DNA of 64,000 nt, taken from a virus. Its lineage: Duplodnaviria; Heunggongvirae; Uroviricota; Caudoviricetes. The stretch's first letter is position 1, and the number at the start of each line of letters is the position of its first letter. Of the stretch, positions 10,905 through 18,124 are shown piece by piece. Made by a program: the position numbers and the translations under genes. The notes under the pieces were generated by a model. That model was not told the origin of the DNA, did not search any database, and saw nothing but the letters and a program-made list of their open reading frames with translations. The stretch lies in IMG/VR virus record IMGVR_UViG_3300025765_000001; one strand, 5' to 3'.

Positions 10905-11153
10905 ATGAGAAACACCATCATGTTCATCATAGGCATGTCTATAATTGTGTTCCTCGGATGGTTTGTTTGTTACGACTACTATCTCTCAATGACTGGCAGT
11001 AGGACGTTCAGTACCGTGGTCTACGACTGGACGCAAGCAAATCTCAAGAAACCCCACGTCCTAATTAGTACCGCCGTCACCATTGGGCTTACAATCGGCT
11101 TCGTGCTTGGCTTCATCCTTGGACACCTTTTCTGGCCGCACAATCCATCTTAG
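10905..11153 (+). CDS. Small two-TM membrane protein
   Basis: Two hydrophobic helices; CTACATA 4 nt before ATG. Confidence 0.6.
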   Translation: MRNTIMFIIGMSIIVFLGWFVCYDYYLSMTGSRTFSTVVYDWTQANLKKPHVLISTAVTIGLTIGFVLGFILGHLFWPHNPS

Positions 11154-13381
11154 TGCAAAATGGCCTTTGGTAAATCAAAAAGCCCAGGCCCGCAAGGGCC
11201 TGGGCTTTGTTGATACAACGCCTTGGCAAGCACTTGTTCAAGGTGCTGCACCGCACCAGCCTCGTCCAAGAACAAGCCATCAAGCTGTGCTTCGTAGCAT
11301 TCGCCGATGACCTGTCCAAACAGCGGCCCCGGCTTGAAACCACGGTCGATCAGGTGTTGTCCGCCAATGATCGGCCTTGGTTTTGCAGCCTCAATAGCCA
11401 ATCGCTCTGCGATAGCAGCGATCTCCTTGGCTGGTTCTGGTAGACCACCGGCAAGCGGGGGGCGTCCTGAATGGTCGGCTTCGAGAATGAGCAATAATTC
11501 TTTCATTGTTGCTTTCCCAAGCCGAACAGATAGACGCCGTACCACTCGATCCGTGATCTCGCTGGTGGTCATGCAAATCATATGCTCTGCAACCAGCGGC
11601 AGAACCTTATCTACAATCCTTTGTAGACACCCAATCCTTTCCAAGAATCGGCGAGCTAAAGGTACTCCTACCTCTGCGTGACCCGGCGATCTCCACCTGT
11701 ACGTTGATGAGTGGATTCCTTGTTCTGGCAATGTCTTGCCAAGGTCTTGACAACTTCTATTTTGTCCATTCTCATCAACGTACACGGTGGTCCCGCCGTT
11801 TTGTGGTAGGGCTTTCCCTAAATCGTGGCAGAGAGCCGCAAGTATGATCGTAGCACGATCCTCGCCTTGCAAGCCTTCTCTATCACAGATACGGGCAGCG
11901 GCATCGCATACATGGAGCGTGTGTGTCCAGGCACAACCGATTCTGACTTCAAAACTAGATTTTTCTTCTAGTTTTTGAAGTAGTTCTACTCCATTATAGG
12001 GTGAAGGCAGGTACACAGGAGTAGAACCATGACAGTCAATGCTTCCATTCACTCGAAGGTCGAAGTGAACGAGTACATCACCATCAATGGTAGAACCAGT
12101 CGCATCCACTACAACAAGGGATACGCTTACACCAGTTGGCCTGGGCATAACGGAACCATTGGTGTCCATCGAATCTTGATGGAATTGCACTTGGGGCGAG
12201 AACTCTTTTCCAGTGAGCATGTTCATCACAAAGATGGCAACCGACTCAACAATAGCCTCGATAACCTCGAAATCATTGATGGCTCGATTCACAACCGACA
12301 GCATACAACTCTCAGGAATCTTAAACATGATCCTGATAATTTTACCTGCCTCGATTGCGGATCGACCGAACGACCACACAAGGCTTTCGGGATTTGCGAA
12401 AGTTGTTGGTTCAAACGTCGCCGAAAAACCATCGCCAAGAGACCCTGTGCTATTTGCAGCAGAGAGACCGTCAACGGCACCGTCTATGCCGGGCTTTGCG
12501 GGCGATGTGCCTGCAACAACTGGCATTGCTGCCGACTTTGCAGAAGAACTAGAAAAGAACTTCCGCAAAGTAAAACTCCGATCAACCCTGATGGTTTGTG
12601 TAGAGCTTGCCAAGCGAGAGTTAAACGGAAACTCCAAGAACTTTCGTTCAAGTAGCTCCCATCCTTCCGGGTGCCATTCAGGGTCTTGTGGAACGTCGAT
12701 CAGATTCAATAGCTCTGGGTAGAGCCGAATCCAGCCGCTCTCTACAAGGAATCGAAGGCCCAGAGAAGGAAGTACGCCTTTCAAAGCCCACTTCTCCCAC
12801 TCGCCCCAGATACGCTCAATAGCTAAGGTATCGGCCTCGCAGATTAGCTTCTGGCACATATCAAGCGTTCTAGCATCGGCGATCAGCTTAAACCGGCTTG
12901 CGAACTGGAAGCCCCTCAGCACCCGTAGTGGGTCTTCAGAGAAGTGTTCGCTGATAGCTCGCAATACGCCGTTGAGCAAATCCTGCTTGCCGCCATATGG
13001 GTCTACCAATTGCCCGTCTAACCTCTTGCCGATGGCATTGATGGTGAAGTCACGCCGCAGTGCGGCCTCAGCCGGGGTCATCGTGTGATCGACTTCGACC
13101 TGAAAGCCTCTGTGCCCTCGCCCGGTCTTGTTGTCACGGCGAGGTAGAGAGAAATCGAAGTCTTCATCCTCGGTAGTCAGCTTGATAACACCAAAGGACT
13201 CGCCGACTATGCTCACCTTGCCGAAACGACGCAGTACGATGCACAGAGCCTCGGCACTAAGGCCAAAGACTTCAACATCTACGTCTTTGCTTTCCAGGCC
13301 GAGTAGCTCGTCACGAATACAGCCACCGACCTTGATGGGGTCGCCGCCTGCCGCAACGATGGCTTGTAGGATATGGTTCAT
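11150..13381 (-). CDS. cca: CCA-adding tRNA nucleotidyltransferase with HD domain, carrying a 726-bp in-frame insertion
   Basis: VGGCIRD, DVDVE, RRDFTINA, EDPLRVLR, ERIWGE, PQDPEWHPEG...WTHT, LCHDLGK motifs. Confidence 0.9.
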   Translation of the reverse strand: MNHILQAIVAAGGDPIKVGGCIRDELLGLESKDVDVEVFGLSAEALCIVLRRFGKVSIVGESFGVIKLTTEDEDFDFSLPRRDNKTGRGHRGFQVEVDHTMTPAEAALRRDFTINAIGKRLDGQLVDPYGGKQDLLNGVLRAISEHFSEDPLRVLRGFQFASRFKLIADARTLDMCQKLICEADTLAIERIWGEWEKWALKGVLPSLGLRFLVESGWIRLYPELLNLIDVPQDPEWHPEGWELLERKFLEFPFNSRLASSTQTIRVDRSFTLRKFFSSSSAKSAAMPVVAGTSPAKPGIDGAVDGLSAANSTGSLGDGFSATFEPTTFANPESLVWSFGRSAIEAGKIIRIMFKIPESCMLSVVNRAINDFEVIEAIVESVAIFVMNMLTGKEFSPQVQFHQDSMDTNGSVMPRPTGVSVSLVVVDATGSTIDGDVLVHFDLRVNGSIDCHGSTPVYLPSPYNGVELLQKLEEKSSFEVRIGCAWTHTLHVCDAAARICDREGLQGEDRATIILAALCHDLGKALPQNGGTTVYVDENGQNRSCQDLGKTLPEQGIHSSTYRWRSPGHAEVGVPLARRFLERIGCLQRIVDKVLPLVAEHMICMTTSEITDRVVRRLSVRLGKATMKELLLILEADHSGRPPLAGGLPEPAKEIAAIAERLAIEAAKPRPIIGGQHLIDRGFKPGPLFGQVIGECYEAQLDGLFLDEAGAVQHLEQVLAKALYQQSPGPCGPGLFDLPKAILH
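11936..12661. mobile_element. HNH-bearing insertion in cca
   Basis: Interrupts the conserved HPEG|xxWTHT motif; 242 codons, open on both strands. Confidence 0.75.
12029..12655 (+). CDS. HNH homing endonuclease with Cys-rich C-terminus, antisense inside cca
   Basis: VHRILMELHLGRELFSSEHVHHKDGNRLNNSLDNL, several CxxC pairs, GGAG RBS. Confidence 0.85.
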   Translation: MTVNASIHSKVEVNEYITINGRTSRIHYNKGYAYTSWPGHNGTIGVHRILMELHLGRELFSSEHVHHKDGNRLNNSLDNLEIIDGSIHNRQHTTLRNLKHDPDNFTCLDCGSTERPHKAFGICESCWFKRRRKTIAKRPCAICSRETVNGTVYAGLCGRCACNNWHCCRLCRRTRKELPQSKTPINPDGLCRACQARVKRKLQELSFK

Positions 13382-14451
13382 CTCGGCCTCCTATTTTTAT
13401 CCTTCCTCTTGACACGCCTGCGGTCTTCTGGGTTCGGGTCATCTAAATAACCCCTTCTTCTGTGAAAGAAAAGGGCCTGCGGCCCCGTAGGGCCAACCAA
13501 AGTTTGTCGGCTAGTTCAGGGTGTTTGGCAACAACAAGATCGCTTCCGTTGATCGTCCAACGCCTGTAATCACCATCGGCTTCATCGAAGTCTTGTTCTT
13601 CGTAAGCCTTCGCCATCCTCTTCTGCCGTTTGGTTAATGCCAACTTCCAACCTCCAACCTCCGATCAATGTTCGGCCTGTAGGCCACGCCGACGCAGGAA
13701 TTCACGAATCAACTGGTCAGGGGTTTCGATACCGTGTAGCGTTCCGCCTTGCTCGACAATCGTGGTCGCCATCGAGCTTACGGAGTAGGTACAAGGGTTG
13801 TCGCCCTCGTGATCCTGCACCACGATGAGGAAGCACCGCTTGCCCAGCTTTTTTACTAACGTCTGGACTGGCGAGAACAGTTGCTTGAAGCCCACGGCAT
13901 CGCACATGTAGTAGTCACCGGTATCGGCCTTTTTCTTGTACGAAGCCGTTGGCCTCTCCGTGTGGAGACCAGTTCTCACCCTGCATCTTGGCGAAAGCAT
14001 CATTGATGTCGTTGGCCTTGATGTGCGTGCGTTCGGGCCTGTCGATATCAGGCAGGGCATTCTGTTCTTCCAGAAAGGCATACCCCATGATGCCGTCACG
14101 GAAAAAACCGGGCGACATATACCAGACATGGTATTCGGTTGTGCCGTGGTTCAGGCCAGGAAATTCGCTCAGCTTCACGATTGGTCCTCCTCTGTTCACA
14201 GCCATCTAGTAATGACCAGATAAGCAAAGATAGCGATGCCGATGAACGGCAGGGCGATCAGCAGGATCAGAAGTCACAAGCGTAGCGTAGTCGTCCTCGG
14301 CCCCGCCGCTCATCGTGAATCCTTGGCCCGCATCTTCTTCAGTTCCGTCACTCCCGCTTACCTTCGATCAGGTCATCGATGCTCTTGGCATCGAGAGTGA
14401 GAAACTCAGCCATGTCAGACCCTCGTGTGGTTGAGGCATGGAGCGTGCCGG

Positions 14452-14733
14452 TTAGTCGTCCTCATCATCGTCCGGATCGTCATCATCATCTAAGTCGTCA
14501 TCGTCCGAATCGTCATCATCGAAGTCGTCATCGTCCAGATCGTCGTCATCATCCAGATCGTCGTTATCGAATTCTTCGTCCTCGAAGTCGTCGTCGTCTG
14601 GCTCATCGAATTCCGGGTCATCATCAAAATCGTCTTCGTCCTCGTCGGGACCGGCGACGACGACATCCGCACCGTGAGCGAAAATGACGGTCTCGACATC
14701 GGGCAACTGAACTTCAAACGTTTGGGTTGTCAT
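14452..14733 (-). CDS. Extremely Asp-rich acidic protein
   Basis: AAGGAG RBS; C-terminal two-thirds mostly D/E. Confidence 0.65.
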   Translation of the reverse strand: MTTQTFEVQLPDVETVIFAHGADVVVAGPDEDEDDFDDDPEFDEPDDDDFEDEEFDNDDLDDDDDLDDDDFDDDDSDDDDLDDDDDPDDDEDD

Positions 14734-14773
14734 GGGTATTACTCCTTTTTGCGAGAACAACCTAGTTCAGGAG

Positions 14774-14913
14774 TGGAGGCGAGGGGAGTCGAACTCCTGT
14801 CTAACTGAGTTGCTAGGTTGCCGCCGAGTTTTCGTTGTACGCATTTGTCTCGGCTTGGGCTACCACGCCCCAGGTATCTACTTGGCTCAGCTATCGAAAC
14901 CGTGAACGCCCCC
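14774..14913 (-). ncRNA. ssrA: Miniature tmRNA-like RNA (140 nt) with tag ORF AYNENSAAT*
   Basis: Acceptor stem GGGGGCG/CGCCTCC-A with G3.U70, 5' GGTTTCGA, helix TAGCTGAG/CTCAGTTA, GAC-AGGAG-TTCGACT-CCCCT T-arm, internal 9-codon frame at 14842-14813. Confidence 0.8.
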
Positions 14914-14980
14914 TTTAGCCACACTTGCGAAGGTGTGGCTTTGTACGACAGTCGCATATAGTTCTTCTATTTTGATCCTC

Positions 14981-15352
14981 CTATACAAGAATTTTACGAT
15001 CAACCGCCTGCTGGAACGCCCGTTCGTATAGTTCCAGTAAACGAGCCATTGGGTCCGTTGTCTTTTTGGGGATGTATTGCACGACAACCCAGGAAGGCAC
15101 ATTCTGTTCGTTGTACCTGTCCACGCCACGCATAATGCAGGTGATCTTCTCGCCGTAGCCAAACTTCACAAAAAGGCGATTTGCGAGTTTGCGACCCTCA
15201 TCCGTCCAGGGCAGAACCACGAAGCGAATCCGATTATTGCCACGGCAAGCTGAGTAGCTGCCGCTCAGAGCCTTGACCGCCTTCGTGAACTTGATGAAGG
15301 ACGGGTTGGCATGTAGATGCAACTCGACGTGCTTGGGTACTGGTGCTGTCAT
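14981..15352 (-). CDS. Hypothetical protein
   Basis: 123-aa ORF, AGGAGG RBS. Confidence 0.65.
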   Translation of the reverse strand: MTAPVPKHVELHLHANPSFIKFTKAVKALSGSYSACRGNNRIRFVVLPWTDEGRKLANRLFVKFGYGEKITCIMRGVDRYNEQNVPSWVVVQYIPKKTTDPMARLLELYERAFQQAVDRKILV

Positions 15353-15651
15353 TGGTCCTCCTTAATTCAGGCCCCATTGTATTGCCAAAGCACTTTCTGT
15401 AAAGCCGGGTTTAGCGGCTTTTCTTCGCCTGTTGTTTGGCTTTATAGCGTTCCAGAGCGACCTGCCTCGGTCATGTTAAGCAAGGCCCAGCCGGAAAAAC
15501 CACTCCACGCTGCCCAGCCAGCATCTACAATAGATTTAACAGTGCGGGCGTGTCGTTGCCGTTCATGGTTTTAACTTCCCGATCCTGCAACGGCAAGGCC
15601 CGCAACTACCGGCCCGCAACTACCGGACTTGTTGTTTCGATGGCGTCCGCA

Positions 15652-16170
15652 TCACTTTTCCTTCATGCGTGGAGCGTTGGGGAAGTCACGGTCGAAGCCG
15701 TCTAGCTCGTACTTGGCCTGATTCCTGGCGATGCGAAGGCTCTCACGGCAGTAGGCCATGATACGCAGATCGTTTTCACTCTCGCCACGCCCGCACATGC
15801 GAGCTAAACGAGCGAAATGTACGGGTGGATAGAGACCTAGGTTGATATAGCTTTCGCAAATCTCCCAGGACAGATTCATCCCGCCGCCCGTCAACACTAG
15901 TGCCAGCTTGTCATCCGCCTCGAAGCGAACGATGGTGGTACAAACCAACAACTCCTGCACATTGTCTGGGATATCGAATCCATCAGGCAACGGGTAGTAG
16001 TTCATCATGGGGAACCAGCCGTCATTGTTCTCGGTGTCCCTCATGCCGCTGCCATTGCAATCCTCGCAATCAACTTCGCCGTCGCCCCCACATTCGGGGT
16101 ATTCCAATGATTCCTCCTCACTTACAAAGACGCTGTTGGATAGCCTCGGCCTTCGTGTAGGTCGAAGCAC
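15652..16170 (-). CDS. Phage-type hypothetical protein with CxxC motifs (true start probably near 16107)
   Basis: PMMNYYPLP and LTGGGMNLSWEI segments; 5' end overlaps tandem repeat. Confidence 0.6.
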   Translation of the reverse strand: MLRPTRRPRLSNSVFVSEEESLEYPECGGDGEVDCEDCNGSGMRDTENNDGWFPMMNYYPLPDGFDIPDNVQELLVCTTIVRFEADDKLALVLTGGGMNLSWEICESYINLGLYPPVHFARLARMCGRGESENDLRIMAYCRESLRIARNQAKYELDGFDRDFPNAPRMKEK

Positions 16171-16410
16171 GATTTAGTTCCTTGCCCTTGCCGTCCTTGA
16201 CGATCAGGATGCCCACTTACAAAGACACTATTGAATAGCCTCGGCCTTCGTGTAGGTCGAAGCACGATTTAGTTCCTTGCCCTTGCCGTTCTTGACGATC
16301 AGGATGCCCACTTACAAAGACACTATTGGATAGCCTCGGCCTTCGTGTAGGTCGAAGCACGATTTAGTTCCTTGCCCTTGCCCTTGCCATCCTTGACGAT
16401 CAGGATGCCA
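16121..16410. repeat. Three tandem ~95-bp copies of a gene 3' end
   Basis: CTTACAAAGAC recurs at 16121, 16216 and 16311. Confidence 0.9.
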
Positions 16411-17036
16411 TTCTCCATCACGGCATTGACATTACCACCACTGCCGAAGAAGTTGATGTCTTCAGCGATCTTTTCGGCTTCGTCCAGCGTGAGAGCATCA
16501 GCAGGGACGCCACAGGTGCAGACCGGTTCGTCCCGACCTTTCTTCACTGGCTTCTTGACTCCGGCCTTCGGCTCTTCCTTCGTTCGTTCTTCGGGCGGCT
16601 TGCAGCCGCCGACGCAGTAGCCGTAGTCTGATGTATAGTCCTCACGGACCATCTCTCCGCAGTAACCACAGCGGCGGGTTGTTAGGCCATAACCCTTCGG
16701 CCACGCCTTGCGGCCATGCACGTTCCGCAAGGCCCACAGCAGGGTCTTGAAGGGCATCGAATCTTCTTCCCAGCGAGACTTCGTGGTGATCCGATATAGC
16801 CGTACTCCCTCTCCAGAGCCGGGTGATTGGTGCGTACTAGCGAGGCGAAGAACCGGCGAGTCTTGCCGGTGCCATTGCAGTTCATGTAGTGCGTGTTGCC
16901 AATTGCGATGCAATCAAGCTCGGCCAACGTGATCTTGTAGACGAATTCGTGATCGTTGGCGTTGTGTACATGGAAGATGGCGTTGCCGCTGAACAACCAC
17001 TCCCAGCATGGTACGGTAGTGCTAGTTGCCACGGTC

Positions 17037-17525
17037 TCAGTCCTCTTTCTGGATGTTCCTCGTGTACCGGCAGTTGGGGTAGTTGCTGCACCCCAGGAAT
17101 CGCCGCTTGTCGTCTCTGGTCTGCTTCGGAATGATCGGATGATCGCATTCCGGGCACCGCTCCTTCGGCATGTAGTCGAGCCAGGAGTCCAGGCGATTTT
17201 GCAGGTTCTTCTTCCAGGTCTGAATGCGGAGAACCTTCTTGCTGCCGCCGACTTCGACGGGGTAGCCATCGGACGGACGACGCATCCAGAGAGCGACCCG
17301 AATGGCGTCTTCTCCAGACGCACGGCTCTCGCCTGTCGGATTGATGCCGGTGTAGATGCGGAGCGACAGCACCAAACCGTCCTGATCGACCCGCTTGGCG
17401 TACACGACTTCGATGGTGCGGTCTTCGGGTCGGAACTTCTTGGAATCGACACGCTTGAAGCCCTGGGGAGCCAGGAAAGCGTCGATCTCATCCAGTGTGA
17501 CGTTGTGATAAGCCTTCTTGGTCAT
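17037..17525 (-). CDS. Protein with C-terminal topoisomerase-type C4 zinc ribbon
   Basis: CPECDHP...FLGCSNYPNCRYT; CACGAGG box upstream. Confidence 0.75.
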   Translation of the reverse strand: MTKKAYHNVTLDEIDAFLAPQGFKRVDSKKFRPEDRTIEVVYAKRVDQDGLVLSLRIYTGINPTGESRASGEDAIRVALWMRRPSDGYPVEVGGSKKVLRIQTWKKNLQNRLDSWLDYMPKERCPECDHPIIPKQTRDDKRRFLGCSNYPNCRYTRNIQKED

Positions 17526-17565
17526 GGGTCAGGCCCTCGTGCGATGGTGAACCTCAACTACACCC

Positions 17566-17593
17566 ATTGTAGTCGTGGCGGGGCCGATGTCAA
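17566..17593 (-). promoter_or_regulatory. Promoter TTGACA-N16-TACAAT
   Basis: Read directly. Confidence 0.75.
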
Positions 17594-18124
17594 GTTGCTT
17601 TAGCTCAGTAAGGCGTTTTTCTTCAGAATCTCGATGATCTCGGCTAGGGTTACCCTATCCTGGTTGTGAAACACCAGTTCTAGCTTGTAGGCCCCGTTCG
17701 TGGTCGTGTAGCCGGTGAAGTAGCGGCCATTTTCTAGTTTCTACCCCATGCTTCTAGGATCGAGACCCAGGCTGAGAACGAATTGATCCATCACCAGTTT
17801 TGCGGCGGCATCGTTGAGGTCACGTTGACGGCTGGCCCTGATACCGTCTACCTCGGCCAGCAACCACTTCACGGCCAGTTCGATCTTGTCGTCTGGCATC
17901 GTGCCGCCTTCGTCGCTGTAGATGCGTTGTTGGTGCTTACCGTATCTGGCCTTCTTGATGACAATTCTATTTTCGCCATATAGCCGGTAATCCACATGGA
18001 TTCGCTCGCCGTAGACGGTGAAGACAGATGCCTCCTTGCTGGCTGCGGGATCGTGTACTTTCACACGCTCTAGCAGCTTGTTTGAAATAACCTCGGTCAG
18101 TGTTTAGAAGTCCATTGGCCCTCC

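What the first reader, a model, noticed from the sequence alone, without database searches (positions are those of the whole stretch)
14774..14913. 140-nt miniature tmRNA that keeps a tag reading frame
Seen on the minus strand: GGGGGCGTTCACGGTTTCGA...GACAGGAGTTCGACTCCCCTCGCCTCCA, giving a 7-bp acceptor stem with G3.U70 and A73, a stemless D-loop, an 8-bp helix TAGCTGAG/CTCAGTTA and a T-arm with one mismatch. Inside, ACAAAT is followed by GCG TAC AAC GAA AAC TCG GCG GCA ACC TAG = AYNENSAAT*, resembling E. coli ANDENYALAA. Known: bacterial tmRNAs are typically about 350 nt with several pseudoknots, and ClpXP reads a terminal AA. Inference: a minimal phage tmRNA that rescues ribosomes with a possibly non-degrading tag (ends AAT) or acts as an SmpB/AlaRS decoy. 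CCA is not encoded (A-CT), and a cca gene lies 1.4 kb downstream.
Basis: partly seen in the sequence, partly recalled or inferred. Interest (0 to 1): 0.9.

Follow-up and report, generated by a model that had tools for sequence, protein, structure and literature searches.

The report
Conserved miniature tmRNA of a megaphage
A 436-kb phage carries, besides a normal ribosome-rescue RNA (tmRNA) and its protein partner SmpB, a conserved 140-base stripped-down copy that keeps the alanine-accepting tRNA-like end, but whose apparent "tag" reading frame is not conserved in related phages.

Summary
Window 14774-14913 (minus strand) is a 140-nt tmRNA-like gene. It passes the Rfam tmRNA threshold (55.2 bits, cut-off 47), with about 290 middle model positions replaced by 59 nt. 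ARAGORN misses it.

It is not a one-off deletion. Three related metagenomic contigs carry a 140-143-nt homologue at the same place. These homologues are 77-89% identical to each other, while the flanking spacers are not conserved. Compensatory changes support helix 2, an extension helix and two hairpins.

The same phage also encodes a full-length tmRNA (tag GETPAYRMAA), a complete SmpB, a CCA-adding-type enzyme and about 60 tRNAs. All of these RNAs lack an encoded CCA.

The tag reading is not supported. From the invariant GCG the four homologues give 9, 13 and 1 codons, and one has no stop inside the RNA. The window's UAG depends on a base that covaries with its pairing partner. Variable sites show no third-position bias. 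The site scores far below real resume sites.

My best reading is a tag-less tmRNA derivative that acts through its tRNA-like end. It is a longer variant of the "TLD-only" RNA known from mycobacteriophage DS6A. IMG/VR holds at least 132 shorter phage examples. This scan reached similar verdicts on other DNA (e1-3474622, e1-5409587). Expression could not be tested.

The parts
14774..14913 (-). Mini-tmRNA gene, from G1 to discriminator A73 (140 nt). The Rfam match runs 14771-14913.
   Evidence: Rfam RF00023 scores 55.2 bits, E 6e-19. Syntenic homologues are L018:783-923, L021:744-885 and L020:2068-2207. The family model R1 scores 141-173 bits on all four.
14907..14913 (-). Acceptor stem, 5' strand (GGGGGCG). 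G3 forms the G3.U70 alanine identity pair.
   Evidence: All 7 pairs are invariant in the 4 homologues.
14774..14781 (-). Acceptor stem, 3' strand (CGCCUCC) plus discriminator A73. It is followed by C-U, so CCA is not encoded.
   Evidence: About 60 phage tRNAs and the full-length tmRNA share the same N73-C-T ending.
14894..14906 (-). Stemless D-loop analogue (UUCACGGUUUCGA), as in a tmRNA tRNA-like domain.
   Evidence: Aligned to RF00023 positions 8-20. GGUUUCGA is invariant.
14886..14893 (-). Helix 2 (P2), 5' strand UAGCUGAG.
   Evidence: Pairs with 14802-14809. Two pairs change on both sides among the homologues.
14802..14809 (-). Helix 2 (P2), 3' strand CUCAGUUA.
14873..14880 (-). Extension helix ('helix C'), 5' strand (RNA nt 34-41).
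   Evidence: Pairs with RNA nt 92-100. A35-U99 in the window corresponds to C-G in the three relatives. TLD-constrained folds of L018, L020 and L021 all give this helix.
14814..14822 (-). Extension helix ('helix C'), 3' strand (RNA nt 92-100). It includes U99 and A100 of the window's UAG.
14857..14870 (-). Hairpin A: 4-bp stem GGGC/GCCC with an invariant loop GUGGUA.
   Evidence: G45-C56 becomes A-U in two homologues. The loop could instead pair with nt 60-63 as a small pseudoknot. This is compatible with the data but unproven.
14823..14854 (-). Hairpin B: 6-bp stem GCCGAG/CUCGGC around a 20-nt A-rich loop.
   Evidence: One pair changes on both sides and one changes to G.U.
14838..14848 (-). 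Most conserved block of the loop, A(C/U)A(A/G)AUGCGUA. It contains the supposed resume codon GCG.
   Evidence: AUGCGUA is invariant. U/C at -5 and A at -4 resemble the U85-A86 frame-setting motif of E. coli tmRNA (PMC2481249). The weight-matrix score is low, and such a motif occurs by chance in 53% of shuffles.
14813..14842 (-).
   Evidence: Present in the window. Length, frame and stop are not conserved.
14782..14798 (-). T arm: 5-bp stem with a UUCGACU loop. It has an A.C mismatch at 52.62, in this phage only.
14917..14940 (-). Hairpin (GCCACAC/GUGUGGC) 3 nt upstream of the RNA 5' end. It could be a processing or termination structure.
   Evidence: Read from the sequence. Relatives have different hairpins or only a 6-nt spacer. 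No T-tract terminator was found.
14981..15352 (-). Upstream gene (123 aa, unknown function). It served as the synteny anchor.
   Evidence: Homologues at 67-72% identity precede the RNA in L018, L020 and L021. No Pfam, NCBIfam or PHROG match.
15376..15403 (-). Promoter-like site (TTTACA-16-TACAAT) upstream of the 123-aa gene. It is a possible source of a transcript that includes the RNA.
   Evidence: This is a consensus match only.
14452..14733 (-). Downstream gene (93 aa, acidic), in the same orientation.
   Evidence: Its N-terminal 20 aa are shared with the gene after the RNA in L018.
11150..13381 (-). CCA-adding-type nucleotidyltransferase with an HD domain (743 aa).
   Evidence: PolyA_pol head at 4.9e-18 and HD at 3.4e-10. 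The best NCBIfam match is the CCA addition/repair protein, below its equivalog cut-off.

Best explanation
This is a functional phage gene for a miniature, tag-less derivative of tmRNA. It keeps a complete alanine-type tRNA-like domain (TLD) and helix 2. The roughly 290-nt pseudoknot and message part of tmRNA is replaced by a conserved 76-nt extension helix that ends in two hairpins.

Inferred mechanism:
1. The RNA is cut out of a longer transcript, like the phage's tRNAs.
2. It receives CCA from a CCA-adding enzyme.
3. It is charged with alanine by AlaRS and bound by SmpB (the phage's or the host's).
4. It enters ribosomes with an empty A site, in competition with full-length tmRNA.

Because it has no conserved message or stop codon, the outcome would be engagement of SmpB and stalled ribosomes without a defined degradation tag. 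It would act as a tag-less competitor or modulator of trans-translation, not as a device that appends AYNENSAAT.

Shown: the gene, its conservation, its fold, its TLD features, the genomic partners, and the non-conservation of the frame. Inferred: processing, charging, SmpB binding, ribosome entry and the net effect.
For: - The Rfam tmRNA match is above threshold and spans both TLD halves and helix 2.
- Three syntenic homologues of the same size exist.
- The RNA is 77-89% identical among homologues. The neighbouring gene is 67-81% identical at nucleotide level. The spacers are 17-55% identical and 6-166 nt long.
- For the six-helix structure, 93% of cells pair and 5 pairs change on both sides. 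Slid controls give 43-49% pairing and 0-2 such pairs.
- G3.U70, A73, the D-loop GGUUUCGA and the T loop are invariant.
- The TLD is about 90% identical to that of the phage's own full-length tmRNA, while the middle is unrelated.
- The genome encodes a full-length tmRNA and an SmpB with its C-terminal tail (198.6 bits against a cut-off of 130). It also encodes a CCA-type enzyme.
- The mini shares the N73-C-T, CCA-less ending of about 60 phage tRNAs.
- The frame is not conserved. The window's UAG depends on a covarying helix base. The resume-site score is low.
- There is precedent. The DS6A RNA is 'little more than the TLD', and a similar molecule strongly inhibits tmRNA, perhaps by titrating SmpB (PMC4131195, citing Mao et al. 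2009; PMC11915505).
- At least 132 shorter TLD-only genes occur in IMG/VR phage contigs.
Against: - Only four sequences are available (three distinct relatives), so covariation and frame statistics are thin.
- The most conserved block of the middle is exactly the motif (U/C)A(A/G)AU-GCG-UA. Its A at -4 and Ala codon match what real tmRNAs use to set the frame (PMC2481249). A pure decoy would not need this.
- Three of the four homologues do have an in-frame stop inside the RNA.
- The phage invests in its own SmpB and full-length tmRNA. That fits a helper role better than an inhibitor role.
- The conserved 76-nt middle is not explained by TLD-only activity.
Confidence: 0.55

Rival explanations
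1. It is a working minimal tmRNA. After alanine transfer, the ribosome resumes on GCG72 and translates a short tag whose sequence is free to vary (AYNENSAAT here). The tag lacks the terminal AA degron. The phage would thus rescue ribosomes without marking the products for ClpXP.
For: - GCG and the upstream U/C(-5) and A(-4) are invariant and lie in a loop. This pattern matches the frame-setting motif U85-A86 (PMC2481249).
- The GCG site is the best or second-best position inside each homologue on a resume-site matrix.
- Three of the four homologues have an in-frame stop.
- The first eight codons read AY[NK][EQ][ND][SL]AA in three homologues. This loosely recalls tags such as ADYEDLALAA of Verrucomicrobiota tmRNAs that share the TLD 3' end.
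- The phage SmpB keeps its C-terminal tail.
- A 4-bp PK1-like pseudoknot just upstream of the GCG is possible in all four.
Against: - L018 has no stop before the 3' end of the RNA, and a 1-nt deletion shifts the frame. L020 stops after one codon. L021 stops inside the 3' strand of helix 2, 4 nt from the T arm.
- There is no third-position bias; variable columns fall 4/4/3.
- The conserved codons 6-8 are the 3' strands of two helices supported by covariation.
- The window's stop rests on the covarying pair A35-U99.
- The absolute resume-site score is -3.4 to -2.7 bits. Real sites have a median of 16.4 and a 5th percentile of 7.7.
- The interior has no significant similarity to the message region of 168 tmRNAs. 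The best score is 34, against shuffle maxima averaging 28.9 and reaching 38.
- The motif alone occurs in 53% of shuffles.
Confidence: 0.15
2. The tRNA-like end is only a scaffold that provides stability, processing and perhaps charging. The conserved three-way junction is the active part. Its invariant loops GUGGUA and AUGCGUA would bind some other partner, such as a host or phage protein, a nuclease of a defence system, or another RNA.
For: - The middle is under purifying selection. Hairpin A is invariant at 12 of 14 positions, and the 3' strands of stem B and helix C at 9 of 10.
- Other phage minis carry unrelated middles on the same TLD (L009, L010, L012).
- Earlier scan notes describe tRNA-scaffolded decoys on other DNA (e1-5355289, unchecked).
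Against: - No partner was found.
- Complementarity to the phage's full-length tmRNA is limited to 7-8-nt perfect words and one 14-nt imperfect (86%) stretch, as expected by chance.
- No Rfam family other than tmRNA matches.
- The flanking proteins have no known domains.
- More distant homologues of the upstream protein lack the RNA.
Confidence: 0.15
3. It is a decaying duplicate of the phage's full-length tmRNA (an internal-deletion pseudogene) with no function.
For: - The TLD is nearly the same as that of the full-length copy.
- The window copy has a T-stem mismatch that the relatives lack.
- The open frame is degenerate.
Against: - The same size and architecture are kept in four lineages whose neighbouring protein is only 67-72% identical.
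- The RNA is an island of conservation between unalignable spacers.
- There are compensatory changes in four helices.
- All identity elements are invariant.
Confidence: 0.05

Closest known systems
'TLD-only' tmRNA of mycobacteriophage DS6A (tmRNA Website; Hudson, Lau and Williams 2014, PMC4131195; Nawrocki, Petrov and Williams 2025, PMC11915505; Mao et al. 2009, as cited there)
   Same: Both are phage-encoded. Both keep the tmRNA tRNA-like domain with alanine identity. Neither has a credible tag reading frame. Both are expected to bind SmpB, and the cited experiment showed inhibition of tmRNA by a similar molecule.
   Different: DS6A is described as 'little more than the TLD'. This RNA is 140 nt, with helix 2, an extension helix and two conserved hairpins. 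It retains a resume-like GCG motif. It coexists with a full-length tmRNA and an SmpB gene in the same phage.
Canonical one-piece tmRNA (SsrA, Rfam RF00023), including phage copies (cluster C mycobacteriophages, Bacillus phage G, huge phages; PMC4131195, PMC7162821)
   Same: Acceptor stem with G3.U70 and A73, stemless D loop, T arm, helix 2, and a partner SmpB in the genome. The TLD is about 90% identical to this phage's own full-length tmRNA.
   Different: No PK1-PK4 were demonstrated, and about 290 model positions are missing. There is no conserved tag frame or stop. ARAGORN does not call it.
CDS-less organellar tmRNAs (jakobid mitochondria; about 65-bp plastid forms of Mallomonadaceae; PMC11915505)
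   Same: Both are reduced tmRNAs without a tag frame that are nevertheless conserved together with SmpB. For the organellar forms a tag-less role in handling incomplete mRNAs is proposed.
   Different: The organellar forms arose by reductive evolution of the only tmRNA present. Here the mini is an extra copy beside an intact tmRNA, and it carries a sizeable conserved insert.
Short phage TLD-only genes found here in IMG/VR (at least 132 contigs, 63-115 nt, mode 77-80 nt)
   Same: They share the same 5' and 3' TLD signature. Seven of eight sampled pass the Rfam tmRNA threshold, with the middle deleted. ARAGORN misses them.
   Different: They are about half the size, with a single short helix-2 hairpin. 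Their middles are unrelated in sequence to this family. No member of this 140-nt family is among them.

Membership tests
tmRNA (SsrA, Rfam RF00023) | Score at or above the curated Rfam gathering threshold | tested here: met
   55.2 bits against 47. Relatives score 57.5, 62.7 and 46.5 bits, the last one cut by a contig end.
tmRNA (SsrA, Rfam RF00023) | tRNA-like domain: 7-bp acceptor stem with G3.U70, discriminator A73, T arm, D loop without a stem | tested here: met
   All these elements are invariant in four homologues. One T-stem A.C mismatch occurs in the window copy only.
tmRNA (SsrA, Rfam RF00023) | Long helix 2 in place of the anticodon arm | tested here: met
   An 8-bp P2 with two compensated pairs, plus an extension helix.
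tmRNA (SsrA, Rfam RF00023) | Pseudoknots PK1-PK4 around the message | tested here: not met
   About 290 model positions are replaced by 59 nt. The interior folds as two hairpins. One 4-bp PK1-like alternative is compatible with the data but has no change on both sides.
tmRNA (SsrA, Rfam RF00023) | Tag reading frame: resume codon in a recognisable context, a conserved frame and an in-frame stop | tested here: not met
   Frames of 9, 13 and 1 codons, and one with no stop. There is no codon-position bias. The resume-site matrix gives -3.4 to -2.7 bits, against a median of 16.4 for real sites.
tmRNA (SsrA, Rfam RF00023) | SmpB partner available | tested here: met
   The phage SmpB is an equivalog match at 198.6 bits and is full length with its tail. 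It lies about 21 kb from the RNA.
tmRNA (SsrA, Rfam RF00023) | Alanylation, SmpB and EF-Tu binding, trans-translation activity | not testable with these tools
   These need biochemistry. Expression data could not be obtained.
TLD-only / CDS-less tmRNA derivatives (DS6A type) | tmRNA-type TLD present and no functional tag frame | tested here: met
   See the rows above.
TLD-only / CDS-less tmRNA derivatives (DS6A type) | [quoted passage not shown] | tested here: not met
   The RNA is 140 nt with a conserved 76-nt interior. The short class found in IMG/VR is 63-115 nt, mode 77-80 nt.
TLD-only / CDS-less tmRNA derivatives (DS6A type) | Inhibits tmRNA, perhaps by titrating SmpB | not testable with these tools
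   Known only from the experiment cited in PMC4131195 and PMC11915505 for a similar molecule.

The most novel reading that the evidence does not exclude
The RNA is the smallest natural tag-encoding tmRNA. It would be a form without the pseudoknot ring, or with a single pseudoknot, that still resumes translation at GCG72. It would add short, non-degron tails, giving the phage a second, 'non-destructive' ribosome-rescue channel beside its full-length, degron-adding tmRNA.
Probability: 0.13. Interest if true: 0.75.

Novelty: new variant of a known kind. Interest (0 to 1): 0.45.

Why it matters
Phage tmRNAs and one TLD-only phage RNA (DS6A) are on record. In the papers I could reach, there is no conserved intermediate form that keeps helix 2 and a structured remnant of the middle, in a phage that also has a full tmRNA and SmpB.

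This form gives a natural test case for two questions. The first is what the tRNA-like end of tmRNA can do without a message: tag-less rescue or inhibition. The second is how little RNA a ribosome-rescue RNA needs.

The side observation may matter more. At least 132 IMG/VR phage contigs carry ARAGORN-invisible TLD-only genes. This suggests that tampering with, or supplementing, trans-translation is a common phage strategy that standard annotation misses.

Tried and rejected
- GenBank phages: blastn of the locus found no match.
- Flanking proteins: the two flanking small proteins have no relatives in IMG/VR. The one IMG/VR relative of the CCA enzyme (197-kb contig) has no tmRNA-like RNA.
- Family-specific DNA pattern: no hit in IMG/VR. 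In JGI metagenomes it found only the contig already in hand.
- Fragments of the upstream protein at contig ends: none found.
- More distant homologues of the upstream protein: 231 representatives exist. The three contigs I fetched have no RNA after the gene, so the protein and the RNA are not a general pair.
- TLD 3' 24-mer scan: it is shared by at least 120 bacterial species of several phyla, so it does not identify a host. Among 119 viral contigs that carry it, none has a mini; 61 have a tmRNA of 300-450 nt.
- Homology of the interior to real tmRNA message regions: not above shuffled controls.
- Antisense pairing of the mini to the phage's full-length tmRNA: only 7-8-nt perfect words and one 14-nt imperfect (86%) stretch.
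- Stop-codon recoding that might void the UAG: ARAGORN predicts tRNAs with CUA and UCA anticodons. ORF coverage rises equally when either TAG or TGA is opened, so there is no recoding signal.
- Two other odd RNAs noted by the scan in this genome (about 77 kb and 44 kb): no Rfam match, and no match to the tmRNA model or to R1.
- The thermodynamic minimum-free-energy fold of the window copy alone differs from the family consensus, at -50.5 against about -41 to -45 kcal/mol. I rely on the comparative structure.

Full report
**What is there.** On the minus strand of window 14771-14913 lies a 140-nt RNA gene, counted to the discriminator base.
- a 7-bp acceptor stem with G3.U70 and A73;
- a D region without a stem (GGUUUCGA);
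- an 8-bp helix UAGCUGAG/CUCAGUUA;
- a T arm with one A.C mismatch;
- an open frame GCG...UAG (AYNENSAAT);
- a 3' end A-C-U without an encoded CCA.

Rfam's tmRNA model matches end to end at 55.2 bits (gathering score 47, E 6e-19). About 290 central model positions are replaced by 59 nt. ARAGORN finds nothing in the window. The genome's two tRNA-Ala genes reach only 30-32 bits on the tmRNA model. The tRNA-like end is therefore of the tmRNA type, not the tRNA type.

**Genome context.** The window is part of a 436-kb IMG/VR virus record that is about 85% complete.
- ARAGORN finds 62 tRNA genes (plus one unassigned tRNA-like call) and a full-length tmRNA at 100789-101150 with the tag GETPAYRMAA.
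- A complete SmpB with its basic C-terminal tail lies at 303976-304392, about 21 kb from the mini.
- A 743-aa protein with a CCA-type nucleotidyltransferase head and an HD domain lies 1.39 kb downstream of the mini.
- The mini's tRNA-like domain is about 90% identical to that of the full-length copy, but the middle parts are unrelated.
- Nearly all phage tRNAs, the full tmRNA and the mini end with discriminator-C-T and lack CCA. This places the mini in the phage's own tRNA-processing regime.
- The RNA sits in a 247-nt gap between two genes of the same orientation. The only promoter-like site lies upstream of the preceding gene, and no T-tract terminator was found. Co-transcription followed by processing is therefore likely. 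This is an inference.

**Relatives.** The small flanking proteins have no relatives in IMG/VR. A search of the large protein collection found three homologues of the upstream 123-aa protein at 67-72% identity.
- Their contigs (L018 = L019, L020, L021) each carry a 140-143-nt tmRNA-model hit directly downstream, at 57.5, 46.5 (cut by the contig end) and 62.7 bits.
- The RNA is 77-89% identical between lineages. The neighbouring gene is 67-81% identical at nucleotide level. The spacers are 17-55% identical and vary from 6 to 166 nt.
- No further members turned up.

**Structure.** With the tRNA-like domain constrained, L018, L020 and L021 fold into one architecture:
- acceptor stem;
- helix 2;
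- an extension helix (nt 34-41 with 92-100);
- a three-way junction carrying hairpin A (GGGC/GCCC, invariant loop GUGGUA) and hairpin B (GCCGAG/CUCGGC, 20-nt A-rich loop);
- the T arm.

On the four-sequence alignment, 93% of cells pair and five pairs change on both sides. When partners are slid by 1-3 columns, pairing falls to 43-49% and only 0-2 pairs change on both sides. RNAalifold finds both hairpins independently.

A 4-bp pseudoknot between the hairpin A loop and nt 60-63 is possible in all four sequences, but it has only one-sided changes. The window copy's own minimum-energy fold differs from the consensus. With four sequences the statistics are modest.

**The tag frame.** From the invariant GCG the four homologues read as follows:

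| Homologue | Reading from GCG |
|---|---|
| window | AYNENSAAT, then stop |
| L021 | AYKEDSAANEQHN, then stop; the stop lies in the 3' strand of helix 2, 4 nt before the T arm |
| L020 | A, then stop |
| L018 | 23 codons with no stop before the RNA's 3' end; a 1-nt deletion shifts the frame |

- Variable columns fall 4/4/3 on codon positions 1/2/3.
- Codons 6-8, the conserved 'SAA/LAA', are the 3' strands of hairpin B and the extension helix.
- The U of the window's UAG pairs with A35, where the relatives have C35-G99. The stop is thus tied to a covarying helix position and is not conserved as a codon.

**The resume site.** The most conserved block of the interior is (U/C)A(A/G)AU-GCG-UA, in the loop of hairpin B. 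Its -5 U/C and -4 A fit the U85-A86 frame-setting motif of E. coli tmRNA. In that motif A86 is nearly universal and U85C is tolerated (PMC2481249). I do not count this as support, for three reasons:
- Such a motif occurs in 53% of shuffled interiors.
- I built a weight matrix from 84 distinct real resume contexts. In cross-validation it finds the true site in 83 of 84 tmRNAs. It scores real sites at a median of 16.4 bits (5th percentile 7.7) and the phage's own full tmRNA at 9.0 bits. It scores the mini's GCG at only -3.4 to -2.7 bits.
- Local alignment of the interior to the message regions of 168 tmRNAs does not exceed shuffled controls.

A loose likeness of AYKEDLAA to Verrucomicrobiota tags such as ADYEDLALAA may be a relic of descent, or it may be chance. 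I conclude that descent from a tag-coding tmRNA is plausible, but present-day tag coding is not supported.

**A wider class.** Pattern scans of IMG/VR for both TLD halves gave these counts:

| Spacing between the TLD halves | Contigs found |
|---|---|
| 50-80 nt | 12 |
| 80-110 nt | 4, of which three are mini-like with unrelated middles |

- The short forms are 63-115 nt, with a mode of 77-80 nt.
- ARAGORN calls none of them.
- Seven of eight sampled pass the Rfam tmRNA threshold, and they often lie beside phage tRNA genes.
- In the papers I could read, only the DS6A 'TLD only' RNA is described. A similar molecule is reported there to inhibit tmRNA, perhaps by titrating SmpB (PMC4131195; PMC11915505).
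- Earlier follow-ups of this scan reached similar conclusions on other DNA (e1-3474622, e1-5409587). I verified the class here independently.

**Mechanism.** The selected parts are the alanine-type tRNA-like domain, helix 2 and a folded interior. A reading frame is not among them. The most economical reading is a tag-less tmRNA derivative. It would be matured like the phage's tRNAs, charged with alanine and bound by SmpB. It would then enter stalled ribosomes in competition with full-length tmRNA, so that SmpB and ribosomes are engaged without a degron being added. All steps after 'the gene exists, is conserved and has the identity elements' are inferred.

Whether the net effect is rescue or inhibition cannot be decided here. 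The phage's own SmpB and tmRNA argue for a helper role. The DS6A-type experiment argues for inhibition. The rivals, in order of my estimate, are:
- a truly translating minimal tmRNA (0.15);
- a tRNA-scaffolded RNA whose junction binds another partner (0.15);
- a pseudogene (0.05).

**Verdict.** The element is a new, longer variant of a known but barely described kind, the phage TLD-only or CDS-less tmRNA derivatives. Expression and biochemistry are untested.

Noticed in passing
IMG/VR loci L269-L400 (for example L269:3031-3110, L273:1884-1966, L286:4019-4084, L396:761-866): At least 132 phage contigs carry 63-115-nt genes made of the two halves of a tmRNA tRNA-like domain around a short hairpin. 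ARAGORN calls none of them. Seven of eight sampled pass the Rfam tmRNA threshold, and they often lie beside phage tRNA genes. Only the DS6A example is in the papers I could read.
   Followed up: partly
Own genome G000:C1:100789-101150 (+), outside the window: A full-length phage tmRNA with tag GETPAYRMAA. Fourteen IMG/VR contigs carry tmRNAs with the related tag GETQLALAA. Among the genomes sampled, the closest bacterial tmRNA is from a Planctomycetia MAG (L182).
   Followed up: partly
Own genome, all tRNA genes (for example 12152-18069 and 165134-192503): Nearly all of the roughly 60 phage tRNA genes end with discriminator-C-T and none encodes CCA. This uniform 3' signature is shared by the full tmRNA and the mini. 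It fits dependence on the phage's CCA-type enzyme.
   Followed up: partly
Own genome G000:C1:219242-219319 (-) and 191389-191459 (+): ARAGORN predicts tRNAs with anticodons CUA and UCA, which are suppressor-like. ORF coverage rises equally when TAG or TGA is opened, so I saw no sign of stop-codon recoding.
   Followed up: partly
window 14981-15352 (-): The 123-aa protein upstream of the RNA belongs to a family with 231 cluster representatives (E <= 1e-3). It has no Pfam, NCBIfam or PHROG match. More distant members are not followed by the RNA.
   Followed up: partly
window about 14755-14765 (-); L018 about 928-935; L021 about 892-898: A short motif CUAG(G)U lies 8-10 nt after the RNA's 3' end in three homologues, within otherwise unalignable spacers. 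It may be a processing signal.
   Followed up: no
L012:10684-10809, L010:669-802, L009:40-175: Three other IMG/VR contigs carry 123-140-nt tmRNA-like minis with middles unrelated to this family and to each other. Two of them pass the Rfam threshold, at 63.9 and 56.7 bits.
   Followed up: partly
Own genome G000:C1:303976-304392 (-), 6.2 kb before the window: The phage-encoded SmpB is full length (150 aa) with the basic C-terminal tail. It is an equivalog-level match at 198.6 bits.
   Followed up: yes
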